This document shows, one piece after another, positions 39,014-48,856 of a stretch of DNA of 64,000 bases; position 1 is the first letter of the stretch, and each line of letters opens with the position of its first letter. The notes beneath the pieces are model-generated. The model ran no database searches, was not told where the DNA came from, and worked only from the letters and a program-made list of their open reading frames with translations. Origin of the DNA: Spizellomyces punctatus DAOM BR117 (Eukaryota); the NCBI GenBank assembly GCA_000182565.2, contig KQ257460.1. One strand, written 5' to 3'. Made by a program: the position numbers and the translations under genes.

Positions 39014-40824
39014 TTATTTGCCCTCGAACATCTTCTTAAGATGAGCCGTACTGAAGGACTTTGGCCTATAGACAAATCAACATTAGCACATTGACCACCC
39101 TGTCGATGGGAACAAGTTACGCTTACCGCTCAATAGGGAGACCCAGGGCACGGTCCCAGATGAGCCCATTCATGACACCCAAGGCGCGCGACACTCCAAA
39201 CAAGACAGTGTAGAAATCTTGCTCCACAAAGCCGAAGTGCTGGAGAAGAACACCACTATGGGCGTCAACGTTGGGCCATGGGTTCTTGGTCTTTCCGTGC
39301 TCGGTCAGAACTCCGGGAACAATGTTGTACAATTGGCTAACAAGCTTGAACATTGGATCGGTTGGAAGGTGTTTGAGAGCGAACTCGCGCTGGCAAGTGT
39401 AACGGGGGTCGGTCTTACGGAGCACAGCATGTCCGTATCCGGGAACAACCTGACCACTCTTCAAGGTTTTCCACAAAAACTCCTTGATCTCCTCATCGGT
39501 AGCATTGGGACCGACTTGCTCCCTCAATTTCAAAGTCCAACGAAGAACCTCCTGGTTCGCCAAACCGTGAAGAGGACCGGCCAACCCGTTCATACCAGCG
39601 GCGAAAGAAAGGTACGGGTCGGAGAGAGCACTTCCAACCAAGTGAGTGGCGTGAGCACTACACATCGAACGGTTATTAGACACCTAATATCCAATGCCAG
39701 ACGAAAGTTATTGAAGGTGACAAGTTACCTGACGTTACCTCCTTCGTGGTCAGAGTGAATAGTGAGGTAGAGACGCATGAGTTCGACGAACTTGGGGTCC
39801 TGGTAACCAAGAAGGTGGGCGAAGTTGGCACCCCAGTCAAGGTTGCGGTCAATCTCAGGAACCTTGCCATCCTTGAAAACGTTACGGTAGATGCGAGCTG
39901 CAATGTTGGGGAGCTTAGCAATCAAGTCGTTCGCGTCCTCGAAAGTGTAGTCCCAGTATTGAGTCTTAGGAACACCACTCTGGTAGGCTTTCGCAAAACT
40001 GCTCTCGTGCTGCAAAGCAGTGACAGCCAAGCTGAACTGGCTCATCGGGTGGAGGGTGTTGGGGCAACGATCAAGAAGGTCTTCCACGTACGAGGGGATA
40101 GCAGACCGGGCAGCCCAGTCGGCAGAGAGGGCCTTGACTTGTTCAGCAGTGGGGATCTCACCGGTCACCAAGAGCCAGAAAAGAGACTCCGGAAGAGGCT
40201 CCTCACCGCCCTCCGCTGCAGGGAGGAGCTTCTGGCACTCAGGAATAGTGTAACCACGGAAACGGATACCCTTTTATGGACAACACGCCAGGTAAGTTTA
40301 GACAAGAACGTACCGCCAAAAGCGCGTTCAACTAACCTCCTCGGCATCGAGAACGGAGCCTTCCCAAACAAGACCCTTGATACCACGCATACCACCGTAC
40401 ATCTGGTATTGACGAGAATCAGCATTCGTAAGGTCTCTGAACGTGACTCAATAAAACTTACCATGTCAACGGTGGTCTCACCCATAACCTTGTTGCCATA
40501 CTTGGCACGCACTTCCTTTACTTCCGCCTGCTTTTCGGGGATCAGCTCCTTCAGACGCTCCTTCAAGCTCTGTAGTCCACGGATCAACGACCTTTAGTTT
40601 ATCTGAAGACATCTTCTTGATATATTTTCATGCCAAAGCCATACCTGAGTCTTGGCAGTGGAATAGGCACGGACAGCGAACTGCCGGGAAAGAAGCTAAC
40701 ATGTAAGATGTGATAAGTAAGCACTGATAGGCACGATTCGCTGTCCCGCATCGCGGGGATCACACCGTTAGGGACATACCGACGAGGCCGCTGACACCTT
40801 TGGCAAAACACGAAGGGAAGCCAT
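39014..40824 (-). CDS. CIT1: Mitochondrial citrate synthase
   Basis: [50 protein letters not shown]-terminal presequence [15 protein letters not shown]. Confidence 0.97.
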
Positions 40825-41498
40825 TGTTTTGTGAATGATGGGAGAGTCGGTGATGGGAGACGACAAGCAACAAAGAGGAAAGAAGGCAGTCGGTTGATTC
40901 CCATCCGATTTTTCAATTTCCGGAAATTGCCGTCGCTCCGGTCACGTGAACATATGTGTCATCCCGTTGGTTGTCAAGGATGGATTTGGGGAAGGAAACA
41001 AACGTCCAAAGAGTTCCCGTCCTCCAAGATTACTTTTGCGGTGGATATTCTTTGGGCTCTTTACAGTGTTTGGGTTACTTGAATGCGCTCGAGTTCTCGT
41101 CAAGATCGGCTGGGACAGTATGATGTCCAGGTGTACTGATCGCCCTTTAACAGATGGAGTTTATGAATCCCCCATCAATACCATCGACGGGAAATATATC
41201 AACTGCAATAAAGACCAGGAGAATCGTTGGCCTTTCTTTTAACAACCAACCTGTCATTGGGGATGGTACTCCCTAATATAACGTACCGTCGTGATCTCAC
41301 ATGATCAGCCGCGTCGATAAATCAAGTATAACCCCCAAAATCTCAATTGGACACGGCCGACACTTAGACCGATTTACTTTAGACTATTTTCACAAATATT
41401 GCCGGGTATGTGACAAAGTATATATACAGAAAATATTATCCAATGCATAGAAAATACACCGCCTGTTTTTCTGCATTTTTAAAGCATGTTAAGTTAGT

Positions 41499-41837
41499 TT
41501 ATGATATGTTGAAAAGTAGAGGAATGTACAGCAACAAGCATCCATGTAGCACCTTCTTTGCATCCATTCTTGGTTGCCAAGCCTCCCCCTTGTTGAGAAG
41601 ATAGAGAATCACTTTGATTGTATCTTGATCTACTGTGGGAAAGGATGGTGCAGATAGGATGTAGAATTTGAGAGCATGGGAAGCGTGGTCGGCGAGTTGA
41701 TGGATGATGGCAATGTAATCTAGAAGCCATTGGTGGTAGATCTTGTTTGGCAGGGCTTTTGCAAAGGAAGTCTTGTTGCAGGTATGTAAGGTGGGTTTGT
41801 CGAGTTTTTTGAGTTTTTGCTTCTTTTTTGGTGGCAT
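41499..41837 (-). pseudogene. Fz1: Truncated Fanzor1 (TnpB/Cas12-related RNA-guided endonuclease), N-terminal ~105 aa, SpuFz1-like
   Basis: MPPKKKQKLKKLDKPTLHTCNKTSFAKALPNKIYHQWLLDYIAIIHQLADHASHALKFYILS...ILYLLNKGEAWQPR closely matches the N-terminus of Spizellomyces punctatus Fanzor1 as I recall it. It is intronless, starts with an NLS-like stretch, and homology stops at ~41520. Confidence 0.85.
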
Positions 41838-41966
41838 TGATGATATCTATGGAAAAAGATGAAAGCCTGGGAAAATGGGCATGATAACTTATATAGGATT
41901 TTTTGGATCAAACCATAGTTCATGAGTCTAAATCGAGTAAAATTATGATTAAATTGGTTGGAATCT

Positions 41967-41995
41967 GTGTACTAGTGCCCACTCCACCGACAGCA
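41967..41995. repeat. Candidate degenerate left terminal inverted repeat of the Fanzor transposon
   Basis: GTGTACTAGTGCCCACTCCACCG lies ~130 bp upstream of the Fanzor ATG and resembles my recollection of the Spu element end / omegaRNA scaffold 3' part (GTGCTAGTGCC...CCACCG), in the orientation expected for the left TIR. Confidence 0.5.
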
Positions 41996-42234
41996 TTTGG
42001 GAATTGCGGATTCACAGATTCTGAATCCACATGAATCCTGTGAATCCACATTTCAAGATTCGGAATTGGGCTTCCAAGAGTGACCGCCAAAGAGGAAGCC
42101 ACCATACCAGAACCCTCAAAAGAACTACGGGTGACATTGCAAACGCTTGGTTTCAGTATGATATGAGGTGCTAAGTAGCGCGCACTCCTCGCCTTAATGT
42201 CTTCCAGCATCAGGCGCACATCATCTCGTTGACA

Positions 42235-45200
42235 ATGAAGCCAACCAATGGAGGCCTACAGTGGTTGGGACTGCTCATCCTGATCGCTTCTATACAAGCA
42301 TCCCAGGTGGGGCGAATATTGGAAATGTTACCAGTGATCGGAGGGACTTGATCCTGAACCCTATATTGCGACTGTAGGCATCTTCACTAGTCTTGAACGA
42401 CCCCGCTGGCCTCGAAGAGCTCAATAGCGGTATTTTGCGAAAATCTACATTGCATGCTGTGGCTTTTCCTGACGTATGGGAGGTATGTGCAGCCCAATTT
42501 CAAAGTCACCGTCCTGAAGTAAGCCACGCAGTAATAAATATGACCGAAGAGCTTGGGTCCTTTCCCACATGGTTCTAGAGAGCTCGGAAATGATCCTCTT
42601 AGCGCTTACGGTGGATTTGAGAACTTGAGTTTTTCTTCCACGGATAGATATCCCTCGGAGCTTGCCGATGGAGGCTTCGTGCGATGGCGTCATGTGGAGA
42701 CAGGGCCAGATCAAACTGTACGGCTGTCATATCCGCAGATACGGTGGGAGTTTAACCAAAGGCCATTTGGTATGAGTAGCTTTGTAAGAAGATTGCAGCT
42801 TTTATGTGCAACTTGCTGATATGTAAGGACAGGTTGGGCTGCGTTGCAGCATGCCTCATATTTCCGGGGCAAATTCAACGTGCATGAAGAAGGGATTTAT
42901 TTGGTCGAATTTTCAGGGGTGGTATCTTTCAAGATAGATAACCGTGCATTTACTGGCAATGTATATGGATACACGCATGCGTCCCATTCTATTGTATATT
43001 TGTCCAAAGGCGAGCATATCTTATATGTGTACGCTGTCATTGATGTTCGTATATCAGGCGGGTAGGCATCTGTGCTCAGGTTTTGGACGTGCTCGATCTG
43101 GTACAGGACTTACTTGTATTCTGCGCATAGTACGATACCGCCGGAGCTTCGTTTTCGTGGAAGTCTTAAAAAAGCGGAAATAAACCAAGAGAACCATGGC
43201 CTTATCCATTTTGAGAACGATGCAGTGATCCCTGAAGTAATGGGGACGGAACTTATATCGCCTTTTGCATCAGTTGCTATCATGAACGCCAATATCACTA
43301 CACCCGCGGAAAGACCCTTGACTCGGCAGCAAAGTCGTGATATGACCGGGTGGGTGCAAGTGACCAGCGTACACGCAACATTATCTGATGGCACAGAAGT
43401 GGGTGATCGACTGTTCATCGATAAAAAAAAATGATGCCATGCCGTCTGATCTTTCTTTCCTTCTTGATAGGTCAATGCAACTCTTCCGGTGCATTTTAGC
43501 ATCAAGATAGCCCCTGGGCAAATCATGGCAGTTCCCTTGAATTTGAGTATAGGCGCTATTCCTCCAGACCTCGCACCTTCTATGAGAATCGAGCTGGACT
43601 GCATTAGGCTAGATGACAACGAGCGCTTCTCGCTGCTATTGGGCCCCTTCACTTTTCACAGACGACAATGGAGCGATGTCTACAAGATAACCTTTCTGGA
43701 CTATGACTTTTCTGTTCATTATGCGATGGCACGTCCACCTAAGAAGGCCTGCGCAGATAGACAGACGAAATGTCCGATAGTCTTGGCGCTCCATGGGTAT
43801 GTCGTACTGGGTCTGTCTTGGTTCTCATTCAAATCTTTATGGTCTTGAATCTTTTCTACCCTTACAGTGCGGGAGTAGAGGCATCATCGGAATTCTGGAC
43901 CAATGCATACCGACAACAGGAAAATGCCTGGGTAGGGAGAGCAGAGGCTTCAGACACCAAGGCGTTAAACCAATTCTCACGGCCATTAGGTCTTATACCC
44001 CACCGGCAGAACTCCATGGGGGTTCGATTGGCATGGCCCATCTTTTCGCAATATAGAGTATGCATTAGATGCGTTGCACCTACTGCCTGGAGTTCCCGCC
44101 GAAAAACAAAAAAGCCTTGCCATCAATCGAAATAAGCTTATATACGCTGGCCACAGTAATGGAGCACAAGGAGCGTGGTGGCTCGCAAGTCATTTTCCCG
44201 ACAAAGCGCTGGCGGGTATGACCCCATACAAACACTGTGTATCTCAAGATTCACACTGAACGTTCCGAACATAGCGGTTCCTGCTTCGGGATATATGAAA
44301 ATCCAATTTTATGCTCCATATTTTATGCGTGTAGGCGATTCATATGCGGATCCTCTACTTCGTGGCATATTAGATGCCAGCATTGCTGAGCATGACATAG
44401 ACTTATATGCAGCAAACATGGTAATTGGAGTCTGTGACGTGCACTTTTTAAACTCGCCGTTTAGCGCTCATGCTGCTTAAAGGGAGGGCTACCAGTGTTA
44501 GCACGTCATGGAGCTCTCGATGACAATGTTCCTCCATTGCATTCTCGACGTTTGATACGCCTTGGGAATGAGTGGAATCGAAACCCGATATCGTGGGAGT
44601 ATGTAAAATACGTACTTCTGGCGTGGCTATCATAACTCAATTCTTTGCATTCTCTGATATAGTTTATCGGAGATTCCCGCTCAGGGACACTGGTTTGAAG
44701 GAGTTGCAAACGATAACACCATGCAAGAGTTCATCGACAAGCATTTGAATATCACGGCGGATCCTGAATTGAGTCCTCCCCCGCTACCGGAGGCATTCTC
44801 ACTCAATACACTCAACCCTGCGTCAACGGGATCCAAGGGAGGAATCCGGATACTTCAACTAGAAGTGCCATTTCGGTAGAGTGGCATATGCTCATGCGGA
44901 GCCAGAACTGTAGTCCTCATAATGTTTTATAGCCTTGGTACCATCCGAGTCCATCGCGTTCAAAATCAGTGGCATCTCAACACTAGTAATATTAGGCGAT
45001 TCGGGTTTGTGCGTGACCCCAGACAGGAAGGTATAGAGAGCTGGTCCGTTGATGGCACAGACTTCAATAAGCCGCCGTCCGTATCCGGACCATCGTACGC
45101 AAGATTGGATCCGGACAGTTCTTGGAAGGTTTGTCGCTGGCTGATTGCGGGTAGGACGTGAAGATCACTGACGTTGGACATGTACAGGAGGAAAACGATC

Positions 45201-46246: not shown

Positions 46247-47180
46247 CTACAAATCCGCACGGACACGGAATCCTGGACCGGTCGGCTCCCCCCTCAAAGT
46301 TGTCAACTCCCCATGGGGCTCACAGTTTTGACGTCCAGACTGAGGGCCCGCCTTTGGCACATTGCCCTTCTTCAATTCGTCGAGAATTTTAATGGTCGTC
46401 TCGGAAGTCAAGTCCTCCTGCAGAAGATAAGATTTGAGTTCTGTTCACGAATGCATTCTAGCACAACAGGAAGAAGACCTACATAGTAATCGTCGTTGAC
46501 CGCAAGCACTGGGGCGTTGACACATGCACCAGCACACTCCACCTCCACCAAAGTAAACAGTTTATCGTCGGTCGTTTGCCCAGGCTTGATTCCCAAGTGA
46601 TTTTGAATGGTTTCCAAAATACTGTCGGAGCCACAGAGCTGACACGGAGTTGTGGTGCACAGCTGCAAGAAATACTTCCCAACGGGTTGCCTGTGCGCGA
46701 CCAGTTGAATTAGTTTTCTGCCATCGGCGGTTGACGCTGTCCACGAACCTGTTAAACATCGTGTAGAAAGTGGCGACCTCGTATACTCGCATTGGAGGGA
46801 CTTCAAGGAGATTCGCCACATAGTTCATTGTCGAGATACTAGTCCATCCATTCTGCCGTTGAGCCAAGTCAAGAAGCGGGATGGTGGCGGCCTTCTTATA
46901 TTGCGGAGGATACTTCTTTATGATTTCCTTTGCCCGTTTAAGATTCTCAGGGGTGAACTCGAAGGGTATGGTCGCGTTGTTATCTGTACTGTCACGGTGC
47001 TGTGTGCAATAAAATAGATGAGATGCAACCGAGTTCCTCCCATTCTTCATTTCCACTACAAACCACGAAGAGTGCATCCGATCTCGCCACCGAAGTATTA
47101 GAGATGGTTCGCACTGATTGCGCCGCCAGTGAGCGAGGTCTTGCCAAGGGGACCAGCCGTCGCGACAGAATTCGCAGCAT
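46247..47180 (-). CDS. NDUFV2: NADH:ubiquinone oxidoreductase 24 kDa subunit
   Basis: [58 protein letters not shown] (2Fe-2S ligands). Confidence 0.97.
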
Positions 47181-47270
47181 GTTTTGACAAGACTTGGAAA
47201 TGCAAGACCTGAAAATGGAGAGGTCCTCGCTCTCCTCTGGTTCGTTTGCCCCCCGCAATTCTTTGTGGTA

Positions 47271-47278
47271 TCACGTGA
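47271..47278. promoter_or_regulatory. Palindromic E-box TCACGTGA in the ~150-bp NDUFV2/Ssr4 bidirectional promoter
   Basis: Exact motif between divergent ATGs at 47180 and 47334. The same core recurs in five other promoters in the window. Confidence 0.55.
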
Positions 47279-47333
47279 GCAAAGGTGTTTAACGCGGCAT
47301 TGCAACGCAACCGCGAGATCAACCTCAACGGTA

Positions 47334-48856
47334 ATGTTCAAGAAACTCACTACCAATTTTGCTCCTCAACGGGGAGCGCCGCTAAGTCCGGATCGAGCAG
47401 CAGAGATACTGCACAAAGCAGCCTCACTAGTAGACCAAACGTCTTTCGAATGGATTATTGTAGACAAGCCCGTTGGTAATGTTCTGGGGATAGATCATTA
47501 ATTACTTAGAAAAAGGGTTCTAAATAATGCGTACGCAAGCAGACGGTTCCATCTTTGTGTTTCAACTTCATCCTTCAGAACCCCTCCCTGAGGATGGATA
47601 TGGTGAGCTTGAGGTCAATATAGTTACGTCATGGCACGGCATGCAAACAGTACCTCAATACAGGGTGGATGGACGATGAAGCCGCGTTTCGCACTATTGT
47701 CGTCGACAAGGTATGGTGTTATGTCTTTACAATTAATGGAACCTGTGATGAACTACTTCTTCCTGCAGGAAATGGAAATTATATCCCGAAGCCAAGGCTT
47801 CGGCTACGGGGATAAAGTCGCCCACATGTATGTTACCCTGACACTGATAATATGTGGCATAATGTTAATTATTTGTTCTATAATATTATAGGACACGAAG
47901 ACGCTACCGCTTGGTCCACTCTGACCTTCAGCTAATGCATTATCTCCAAATGCCTGATCCCGCCCGACATGTGCCAGTCCATCCGCAGCTCATCAAGGCC
48001 CCTCCCCGCGATCCCGCGACTTTACCTAATCTCACTGCTCGTGGCCCACCGCCTCCACAAATGGTACCACCGTATGGAATGGCACAGAGAGGGATGGCTG
48101 GTGCGGATCCCGCACATTATAAACATCTTGGTCATCGCAAACGTGGTCGGGTAAGTCACCATGTTGATGACCGTTGGGTTTTCGCACTTAATTATTGATA
48201 ATAGATAAAGACGTCAATGCAACCTCGCGCTTTTCTAGAAGACGATCACGATCCGTCTGGGGGTACACATCTGATAGTGCAGTACCTCTGATGTCCCATC
48301 TATCGCTATAGCTAATGCTGTGTCCATAATAACAGACGAGTTAGATGGATCAGTAAGCCGTGCGGTGGCATTGGAAAGATACAAGCGGAACCACGAGTTC
48401 ATTGACATGATATTTTCACCGTACCCCATTGGTGAATGGTCTCCCTCTCTCTATTAACATAGTTTGTGTTCCTAACAACTTAATTGCGCATAGCATCCAT
48501 AATCCCTCCCCAAATAATATCGGACACGAGTGCCGACCGTCTAGAAGGTCTAAAGCGCCAGCAGGTGAGGAAGTGGAGGTCCTCTGCCGTCGTTTCAAGC
48601 GATGGTCTCATCCAACTGGAGTAGGTTGAAGTCGGTGAGGAGATGGGTAAACTTGCTCGGTCGAATGCAGACGAGATCAAAGAGTTTCAAGAGAAGTCTA
48701 AGAAGCTAAGTAAAGCTATTGATGTGATAAAGCATGCCAAGTCACTGCAGGTTTGTTCCTCAAGCACGCGCAAAACAAGTCGTTTCAAAGCATGCTCATA
48801 TTTCCGTTCTTCAGGAGTTGGATGCTTTGGAAGCTGGGACAACAGCGGAGCTTTGA
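47334..48856 (+). CDS. SWI/SNF and RSC complex subunit Ssr4-like (DUF1750)
   Basis: [15 protein letters not shown]...EDGY, GFGYGD..AH..RRRYRL...LMHY and C-terminal DELD...[17 protein letters not shown] match the fungal Ssr4 pattern from memory. Confidence 0.7.

What the first reader, a model, noticed from the sequence alone, without database searches (positions are those of the whole stretch)
41499..41995. Relic of a Fanzor1 element: a eukaryotic RNA-guided DNA endonuclease system
Seen: an intronless minus-strand ORF beginning MPPKKKQK (SV40-like NLS) in the gap between citrate synthase and a hydrolase gene, in AT-rich DNA unlike the host genes. Established knowledge (from recall): this closely matches the N-terminus of Spizellomyces punctatus Fanzor1. 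Fanzors are transposon-encoded TnpB/Cas12 relatives guided by an omegaRNA transcribed across the element's 3' end. Inference: this copy is dead, since similarity stops at ~105 aa before RuvC and I see no omegaRNA end downstream. It suggests full-length copies and omegaRNA-only loci elsewhere in this genome. If the species is not S. punctatus, this is a new ortholog family.
Basis: partly seen in the sequence, partly recalled or inferred. Interest (0 to 1): 0.9.

Follow-up and report, generated by a model that had tools for sequence, protein, structure and literature searches.

The report
Dead Fanzor1 fragment beside citrate synthase
This is a broken left-hand piece of the known Spu-1/Fanzor1 transposon of the chytrid fungus Spizellomyces punctatus. 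It has no nuclease part and no guide-RNA end, so it is an ordinary transposon relic, although it is still transcribed.

Summary
The minus-strand ORF 41499-41837 (112 aa, MPPKKKQK...) matches the N-terminus of SpuFz1 (PDB 8GKH, E 3.7e-46). It also matches 20 named S. punctatus paralogs at 73-86% identity. Homology covers only codons 1-105 plus about 105-140 nt of upstream element DNA. A profile of 12 full-length paralogs finds nothing else in the 64 kb. No right-end inverted repeat lies downstream, so RuvC, the zinc-finger domain and the omegaRNA are all absent.

The host citrate synthase matches S. punctatus DAOM BR117 with 4 mismatches, against 13 for S. 'palustris'. This is therefore the genome in which Fanzor was discovered. 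Saito et al. 2023 report 42 full or partial Fz loci and 134 ghost loci there. The locus is not a new family.

Three things are new here:
- All ten relic-specific substitutions that could be scored are G:C>A:T, and five of the eight in the ORF change the amino acid.
- An RNA-derived contig shows an 82-nt GT..AG intron whose donor lies inside the ORF. That contig continues into the citrate synthase leader, possibly by merging separate transcripts.
- Stranded reads over the fragment are mostly antisense and come mostly from paralogs.

Verdict: correct reading, already known kind, low interest.

The parts
41838..41979 (-). Left-end non-coding part of the Spu-1 element upstream of the ATG. The true terminus is somewhere in 41943-41979. 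TATATAAG lies at 41888-41895, 51-58 nt upstream of the ATG.
   Evidence: Paralog reads and contigs fit up to 41943, 41963, 41966 or 41979 and then run on unlike the window (tables 7 and 8). Summed DNA contig depth in X2 is 42 in bin 41912-42045 and 2.8 beyond 42046. P0015's annotated N-terminal extension matches 41792-41923.
41523..41837 (-). Codons 1-105, homologous to SpuFz1 residues 1-111 (basic N-terminus and the start of REC, including the equivalent of the TAM-contacting R96).
   Evidence: E 3.7e-46; all 23 homologs hit here and nowhere else with E below 0.07; alignment (relic R90 aligns with R96 of P0013); Saito et al. passages for R96.
41499..41522 (-). Last 7 codons and the stop codon of the ORF. 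Homology has decayed or ended here.
   Evidence: HMMER carries a weak alignment in the same frame through the stop to 41448, which is not significant on its own.
41471..41552 (-). 82-nt GT..AG intron. The donor AAG|GTGCTA follows codon 95, and ACTAAC lies 21 nt before the AG. It is seen in one RNA-derived contig.
   Evidence: table 5 (joint 41470>41553, CT..AC on the plus strand, X1 record 1, 30 letters on the far side). One search compares it with the five citrate synthase introns of 59-84 nt.
41302..41506 (.). Low-copy repeat abutting the point where Fanzor homology ends. It is not Fanzor-like.
   Evidence: X2 record 8 fits 41302-41506 (19 other letters) and not beyond. X1 record 2 fits 41342-41582 across the break (16 other letters, 4 gaps). 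X2 summed depth is 3.5-6 here, against about 2 for single-copy DNA and 62 inside the fragment.
40780..41470 (-). Exon holding the citrate synthase start codon (40824) and 646 nt upstream of it. In contig X1 record 1 it is joined to 41553-41582.
   Evidence: table 8 (1 other letter in 691); [14 protein letters not shown]... starts at 40824; P0150 residue 1 at 40824.

Best explanation
The stretch from about 41500 to 41943-41979 (minus strand) is a 3'-truncated, non-functional copy of the Spu-1 transposon of Spizellomyces punctatus. It keeps the left-end untranslated region with its TATA box and the first 105 codons of the Fanzor1 gene.

Everything needed for RNA-guided cleavage or for mobility is gone. 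That means most of REC, plus WED, RuvC, the zinc-finger nuclease domain, the 75-nt omegaRNA scaffold and the right-end inverted repeat. Fanzor homology stops where a different low-copy repeat begins (about 41506).

The fragment lies in the divergent promoter region between citrate synthase and a plus-strand gene. It has since collected G:C>A:T transitions without visible protein-level constraint.

It is still transcribed in the sense direction. Splicing uses a donor that the decaying ORF appears to have acquired (GCG>GTG, inferred). The resulting RNA either ends shortly downstream or, as a minor isoform, runs on as a long leader of the citrate synthase mRNA.

Shown: homology, truncation, absence of the other parts, species, the splice junction.
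Inferred: how the truncation arose, neutrality, where the transcript starts and ends.
For: - Homology: (8gkh_P, E 3.7e-46). One search gave 23 hits with E<=0.001 among 51 candidates; 20 are S. punctatus DAOM BR117 proteins at 73-86% identity.
- Truncation: all 23 homologs match only 41505-41923. In some searches, an HMM of 12 full-length paralogs gives one hit in the six-frame window, covering HMM positions 1-131 of 631.
- No right end: one search found no inverted partner of the left end in 40800-41560 (score 16; shuffle mean 17.1; 241 of 300 shuffles at least as good).
- No other copy: 40800-42200 has no second copy in the window. One search found 0 Rfam families.
- Species: S. punctatus citrate synthase P0150 shows 4 mismatches in 4 aligned blocks, against 13 for S. 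'palustris'.
- Decay: 22 difference rows fall in the fragment (40 of 121 rows were shown). In 10 of them at least 90% of X22 reads differ from the window. All 10 are window A/T against family G/C. Eight lie in the ORF, of which 5 are non-synonymous and 3 synonymous. The changes include E>K and R>W at residues conserved in nearly all 23 homologs.
- Not annotated: the exact 112-aa sequence is not in the protein collection.
- Transcription and splicing: X1 record 1, joint 41470>41553. Its intron features resemble those of the host's introns.
- Literature: partial Fz loci are described for this genome (PMC10432273 section 7). Spu-1 is about 2.1 kb with terminal inverted repeats and TA duplications (PMC3627910 passages).
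Against: - The 105 homologous codons contain no stop or frameshift, and a TATA box is retained, so a short protein could be made.
- The 5:3 non-synonymous to synonymous count is too small to exclude selection. It rests only on the rows that displayed.
- The left terminus could not be placed (41943-41979), and no 30-nt inverted repeat could be recognised without other copies.
- At least one other locus shares the same break (X1 record 2). The truncated form was therefore duplicated, or it is part of a larger repeat that I could not characterise.
- The splice junction rests on one contig of one unstranded run, with 30 letters on the far side. X22 showed 0 reads across it.
Confidence: 0.9

Rival explanations
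1. The fragment has been co-opted as an alternative promoter and first exon of citrate synthase. Transcription starts at the old Spu-1 TATA promoter, the 82-nt intron is removed, and the RNA continues through 41470-40825 into the citrate synthase coding exons.
For: - X1 record 1 (1745 nt) is one contig that runs from the citrate synthase coding exons through 40780-41470 and across the splice to 41553-41582.
- The fragment and citrate synthase are in the same orientation.
- The TATA box lies 51-58 nt upstream of the relic ATG.
Against: - A contig from unstranded reads can merge overlapping transcripts, as the tool's own caution says.
- In stranded X22, minus-strand depth is 0-0.37 over 40974-41375 but 0.8-2.3 over 40706-40973. 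That points to a main start site close to the citrate synthase ATG.
- Such a leader would carry a 121-codon upstream ORF and would translate citrate synthase poorly.
- Minus-strand depth of 3-4 at 41376-41643 falling to 0.37 below 41375 fits a short transcript that ends near 41380.
Confidence: 0.25
2. The short ORF is kept because it makes a useful protein: a nuclear N-terminal Fanzor fragment that interferes with or regulates full-length Fanzor, like truncated transposase repressors.
For: - The frame is open over all 105 homologous codons.
- The basic N-terminus and the R96 equivalent are retained.
- Sense transcription is shown by the splice junction.
Against: - Substitutions fall at residues conserved in nearly all 23 homologs.
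- Five of eight relic-specific ORF changes are non-synonymous, and all are G:C>A:T.
- Splicing removes the last 17 codons.
- Among proteins of 61-196 aa, only 3 relatives were found, all differently broken.
- At the 10 diagnostic positions only 38 of 767 X22 reads (5%) carry the window's letter, and those reads are antisense.
Confidence: 0.04
3. It is an internally deleted, non-autonomous Spu-1 derivative (ghost-like) that still has a right end and makes an omegaRNA.
For: - DNA just beyond the break (41302-41506) is repeated elsewhere.
- Ghost elements of about 550 nt exist in this genome.
Against: - There is no inverted partner of the left end downstream.
- The adjoining repeat has about 2-3 copies by X2 depth, not the 134 reported for ghosts.
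- One copy of that repeat stops fitting at 41506 without any Fanzor part (X2 record 8).
- I had no omegaRNA reference sequence, so the scaffold itself was not searched for directly.
Confidence: 0.03

Closest known systems
Spu-1 (SPu-1) element encoding SpuFz1, Spizellomyces punctatus DAOM BR117 (Bao and Jurka 2013, PMC3627910; Saito et al. 2023, PMC10432273; PDB 8GKH)
   Same: Same genome and same family. The 5' untranslated region and codons 1-105 are 73-86% identical in protein to the 20 named paralogs, and 77% to P0013, the 8GKH protein.
   Different: Only about a fifth of the roughly 2.1-kb element is present. There is no RuvC, no zinc-finger domain, no right-end repeat and no omegaRNA.
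Partial Fz loci of S. punctatus (23 of the 42 Fz loci in Saito et al. 2023)
   Same: A partial Fanzor gene in DAOM BR117, which is very probably what this is.
   Different: I could not confirm that this locus is on their list.
Ghost Spu-1 elements (134 loci, about 550 nt, both inverted repeats, omegaRNA but no ORF)
   Same: A non-autonomous derivative of the same transposon, of similar length.
   Different: Ghosts keep both ends and the omegaRNA and lack the ORF. This fragment keeps the ORF start and lacks the right end.
Transposon fragments that supply promoters or 5' exons to neighbouring host genes (general phenomenon, from established knowledge)
   Same: The fragment is in the same orientation as citrate synthase, keeps a TATA box, and has a splice donor inside it that joins to host-side sequence.
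   Different: It is not shown that a single RNA molecule spans the fragment and the citrate synthase coding region, nor that this matters for expression.

Membership tests
Fanzor1 / Spu-1 element (as a sequence derived from it) | Significant protein similarity to SpuFz1 and its paralogs | tested here: met
   E 3.7e-46 to 8gkh_P; 23 homologs; HMM hit with E 2.5e-56.
Fanzor1 as a working RNA-guided nuclease | RuvC domain with catalytic D383, E541 and D606 (residues as given by Saito et al.) | tested here: not met
   Only HMM positions 1-131 of 631 are present anywhere in the six-frame window. tblastn with 23 homologs finds no C-terminal part.
Fanzor1 as a working RNA-guided nuclease | Zinc-finger nuclease (NUC/TNB) domain | tested here: not met
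   Same searches; nothing beyond residue 105-130.
Fanzor1 as a working RNA-guided nuclease | omegaRNA: 75-nt scaffold spanning the right-end inverted repeat, followed by a 14-15-nt guide | tested here: not met
   No inverted partner of the left end in 40800-41560 and 0 Rfam hits. The scaffold sequence itself was not available to search with, so this rests on the missing repeat.
Spu-1 as a mobile element | 30-33-nt terminal inverted repeats, CA before the left repeat, TA target duplications | tested here: inconclusive
   The left boundary lies within 41943-41979. A CATA lies at 41944-41947, but CATA occurs 481 times in the window, which equals chance. No right end is present, so no pair of repeats or duplications can be read.
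Ghost Spu-1 element | Both inverted repeats around a conserved body of about 550 nt without the Fz ORF | tested here: not met
   The start of the ORF is present and no right repeat is found.

The most novel reading that the evidence does not exclude
The dead Fanzor fragment may be a working piece of the citrate synthase control region. Its old promoter and a newly acquired splice donor would give an alternative long-leader citrate synthase transcript. A polyadenylated antisense RNA that starts near the citrate synthase promoter and ends about 15-35 nt inside the element's left end would run across it. Most antisense reads carry paralog letters, so antisense, polyadenylated transcription over the 5' part of Spu-1 copies may be a family-wide feature, possibly linked to silencing. 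It is not mentioned in the passages of the Fanzor papers I read.
Probability: 0.2. Interest if true: 0.35.

Novelty: already known. Interest (0 to 1): 0.12.

Why it matters
It matters little. S. punctatus DAOM BR117 is the genome in which Fanzor was first found (2013) and characterised (2023), and partial copies there have already been counted.

The modest extra value is as a worked example of how such copies decay:
- truncation at a junction with another repeat;
- exclusively G:C>A:T changes;
- gain of a splice donor;
- a hint that Spu-1 5' ends are transcribed antisense, which could bear on how the host controls these elements.

Tried and rejected
- **Whole-genome search and laying the genome:** not possible, because no genome is held. 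Copies could not be collected and the ends could not be defined by alignment.
- **Scan of JGI metagenome contigs with SpuFz1 (P0013):** 159 pattern matches, none confirmed.
- **Pfam:** no family for the ORF. None either for P0013, P0002, P0016 or P0015 in this Pfam copy, although the protein database lists PF26935 for the paralogs.
- **Pfam on 7 exon-sized pieces of the plus-strand neighbour:** none, so 'hydrolase' stays unverified.
- **Earlier findings of this scan:** nothing.
- **Literature:**
  - Fanzor + Spizellomyces punctatus: 10 papers.
  - Six-term search on antisense, exaptation and similar: nothing relevant among the 15 listed.
  - Fanzor + citrate synthase: 1 unrelated paper.
  - On these searches only, I found nothing in print on this locus.
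- **CATA as a marker of the left end:** rejected as uninformative (481 matches, equal to chance).
- **The idea that the ORF continues after the intron into more Fanzor sequence:** rejected. The spliced frame adds 26 unrelated residues and the HMM finds nothing.
- **Run X4:** gave only fragments and added nothing on presence or absence in another organism.
- **Domain boundaries of SpuFz1:** not found in the passages returned.

Full report
**Observation.** The minus strand carries an ORF at 41499..41837 of 112 aa that begins MPPKKKQKLKKL. It lies between citrate synthase and a plus-strand gene. Citrate synthase is on the minus strand, with its start codon at 40824 by my splice model and by alignment of the named protein. 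The plus-strand gene's RNA-derived contig starts at 42101. GC is 0.355-0.445 over 41300-41999, against 0.48-0.59 in the citrate synthase exons.

**Identity.**
- phmmer against all PDB chains gives 8gkh_P, the MBP-SpuFz1 fusion, at E 3.7e-46. Query residues 2-106 align to chain residues 396-506.
- The large protein database returned 23 longer relatives with E<=0.001 among 51 candidates. Twenty are S. punctatus DAOM BR117 proteins at 73-86% identity, one is from Spizellomyces sp. 'palustris' at 67%, and two are unnamed.
- P0013 (638 aa, 77% identical to the ORF) is the 8GKH protein itself.
- The alignment places the fragment closest to P0002, which shares QPRMDAKK. It also shows that relic R90 is the equivalent of R96, a TAM-contacting residue named by Saito et al. 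(passages).
- Pfam gave nothing for the ORF or for four paralogs.

**How much of the element is present.**
- tblastn of the 23 homologs against the window hits only 41505-41923. Every other match has E of 0.079 or worse.
- An HMM built from the 12 homologs of 575 aa or more gives a single hit in the six-frame translation of the whole window. It covers HMM positions 1-131 of 631.
- After residue 105 that alignment is weak, and it runs through the stop codon.
- RuvC (D383, E541, D606), the zinc-finger domain and most of REC and WED are therefore absent.
- The published element has 30-nt inverted repeats, and the omegaRNA scaffold spans the right one (section 7 of PMC10432273).
- A local alignment of the reverse complement of 41925-41990 against 40800-41560 scored 16. 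Shuffles averaged 17.1, and 241 of 300 were at least as good. There is no right end.
- Rfam found nothing in the window. I did not check whether Rfam holds a model for this RNA.
- BLASTN of 40800-42200 against the window found no second copy.

**Species.** The cluster of the best citrate synthase hit contains the named S. punctatus DAOM BR117 protein P0150. Against the window it shows 4 mismatches over four aligned blocks. The 'palustris' protein shows 13. The window is therefore DAOM BR117 or a near-identical strain. This is the genome where Bao and Jurka found the first Fanzor: SPu-1, about 2100 bp, 33-bp inverted repeats, TA duplications, 17 full copies (passages). Saito et al. counted 42 loci with full-length (19) or partial Fz genes and 134 ghost loci there. 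The exact 112-aa sequence is not in the protein collection, so the ORF is apparently not annotated.

**Reads (one lay at 80% likeness on 39500-43500).**

What the runs are:
- X1 is labelled 'DNA?', but its contigs skip five citrate synthase introns and five introns of the neighbour. It is therefore RNA-derived.
- X2 carries the introns. Record 6 covers 39887-40681 with 0 differences at a depth of about 2, so it is DNA.

Copy number from X2 summed contig depth (a rough guide only):

| Bin | Depth |
|---|---|
| 41644-41777 | 62 |
| 41912-42045 | 42 |
| beyond 42046 | 2.8 |
| 41242-41509 | 3.5-6 |

The fragment is thus high-copy, and the 200 nt beyond the break is a separate low-copy repeat.
- X2 record 8 fits 41302-41506 only.
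- X1 record 2 fits 41342-41582 across the break at about 93% identity. At least one other locus therefore shares the same truncated form.
- Paralog reads and contigs stop fitting at 41943, 41963, 41966 or 41979, so I can place the left terminus no more closely than that.

**Decay.** Twenty-two of the displayed difference rows fall in the fragment (40 of 121 rows were shown). In ten of them at least 90% of X22 reads differ from the window.
- All ten have A or T in the window where the family has G or C.
- Eight lie in the ORF: five non-synonymous (A>V, E>K three times, R>W) and three synonymous.
- This pattern fits unconstrained G:C>A:T decay, but the sample is small and limited to the displayed rows.
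- At those ten positions only 38 of 767 X22 reads (5%) carry the window's letter.

**Transcription.**
- X1 record 1 (1745 nt) runs from the citrate synthase coding exons through 40780-41470 (1 difference in 691). It then jumps to 41553-41582, skipping 82 nt that read GT..AG on the minus strand.
- The donor is AAG|GTGCTA after codon 95, and ACTAAC lies 21 nt before the AG. The host's introns are 59-84 nt with similar signals.
- The donor's GT corresponds to GCG>GTG relative to the family's alanine codon. This is an inference from the protein alignment and from one clipped paralog consensus.
- Sense RNA from the fragment therefore exists and is spliced.
- Whether the same molecule reaches citrate synthase is open. 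The contig comes from unstranded reads and may merge transcripts. The leader would hold a 121-codon upstream ORF.

**Strand in X22.**
- X22 reads sense: the plus-strand neighbour gives 1.3-10.7 on plus and 0-0.8 on minus, and citrate synthase gives the reverse.
- Minus-strand depth is 0-0.37 over 40974-41375.
- Over the fragment, X22 depth is 21-142 on plus against 1.4-3.2 on minus. These reads are therefore antisense to the Fanzor ORF, and they come overwhelmingly from paralogs.
- Loose A-runs follow 41963 (24 reads) and 41966 (25 reads).
- Plus-strand depth of 6.5-26 continues into 41108-41375, outside the high-copy Fanzor-homologous part. A plus-strand RNA probably arises at this locus too.

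**Comparison and verdict.**
- The fragment is derived from a Spu-1/Fanzor1 element but fails every test for a working one.
- It is not a ghost element.
- It is very probably one of the 23 partial loci already counted. The list is in supplements that I could not open.
- The only open points are local: possible use of the fragment's promoter and donor by citrate synthase, and antisense transcription over Spu-1 5' ends. I searched for print on these and found nothing relevant.

Noticed in passing
window 42001-42054: A 17-nt-arm palindrome (88% complementary, 20-nt spacer) built from three GGATTCA motifs lies about 20-60 nt outside the fragment's left boundary, in single-copy DNA. As DNA it folds at -14.6 kcal/mol, z -4.35, with 0 of 200 shuffles as good. 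Its role is unknown. It could be a promoter element of the divergent gene pair.
   Followed up: partly
window 41000-41979, plus strand: Stranded RNA reads (X22, first mate reads sense) cover the Fanzor 5' region almost only on the antisense strand. A-runs follow 41963 and 41966. More than 90% of these reads carry paralog letters, so many Spu-1 copies seem to give antisense polyadenylated RNA ending near the left end.
   Followed up: partly
window 41302-41582: A low-copy repeat starts exactly where Fanzor homology ends (about 41506). One other locus shares the Fanzor/repeat junction at about 93% identity. Another copy has the repeat without the Fanzor part (records 2 and 8). Its family is unknown.
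   Followed up: partly
window 41720-41923, minus strand: A 67-aa ORF (MNYGLIQKILYKLS...) in the element's 5' untranslated region has a conserved start that the public gene model P0015 (SPPG_02589) uses as its start codon. That model reads MNYGLIQKILYKLS... and then runs on into MPPKKKQK. This looks like an annotation artefact of that paralog.
   Followed up: no
run X1 on window 39500-43500: The run is listed as 'DNA?', but its contigs lack ten introns of the two flanking genes. It is RNA-derived.
   Followed up: yes
window 46565-47365, minus strand: An ORF piece matches the thioredoxin-like [2Fe-2S] ferredoxin family PF01257 (E 1.2e-19). It is probably a complex I 24-kDa-type subunit gene.
   Followed up: no
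No Pfam family was found on 7 exon pieces.
   Followed up: partly
P0016 (SPPG_04428), a paralog elsewhere in the genome: This 298-aa gene model jumps from about residue 95 (QPRTDAKK) straight to GQKQQLPPKSD. It is an internal deletion of a different kind from the truncation seen here.
   Followed up: no
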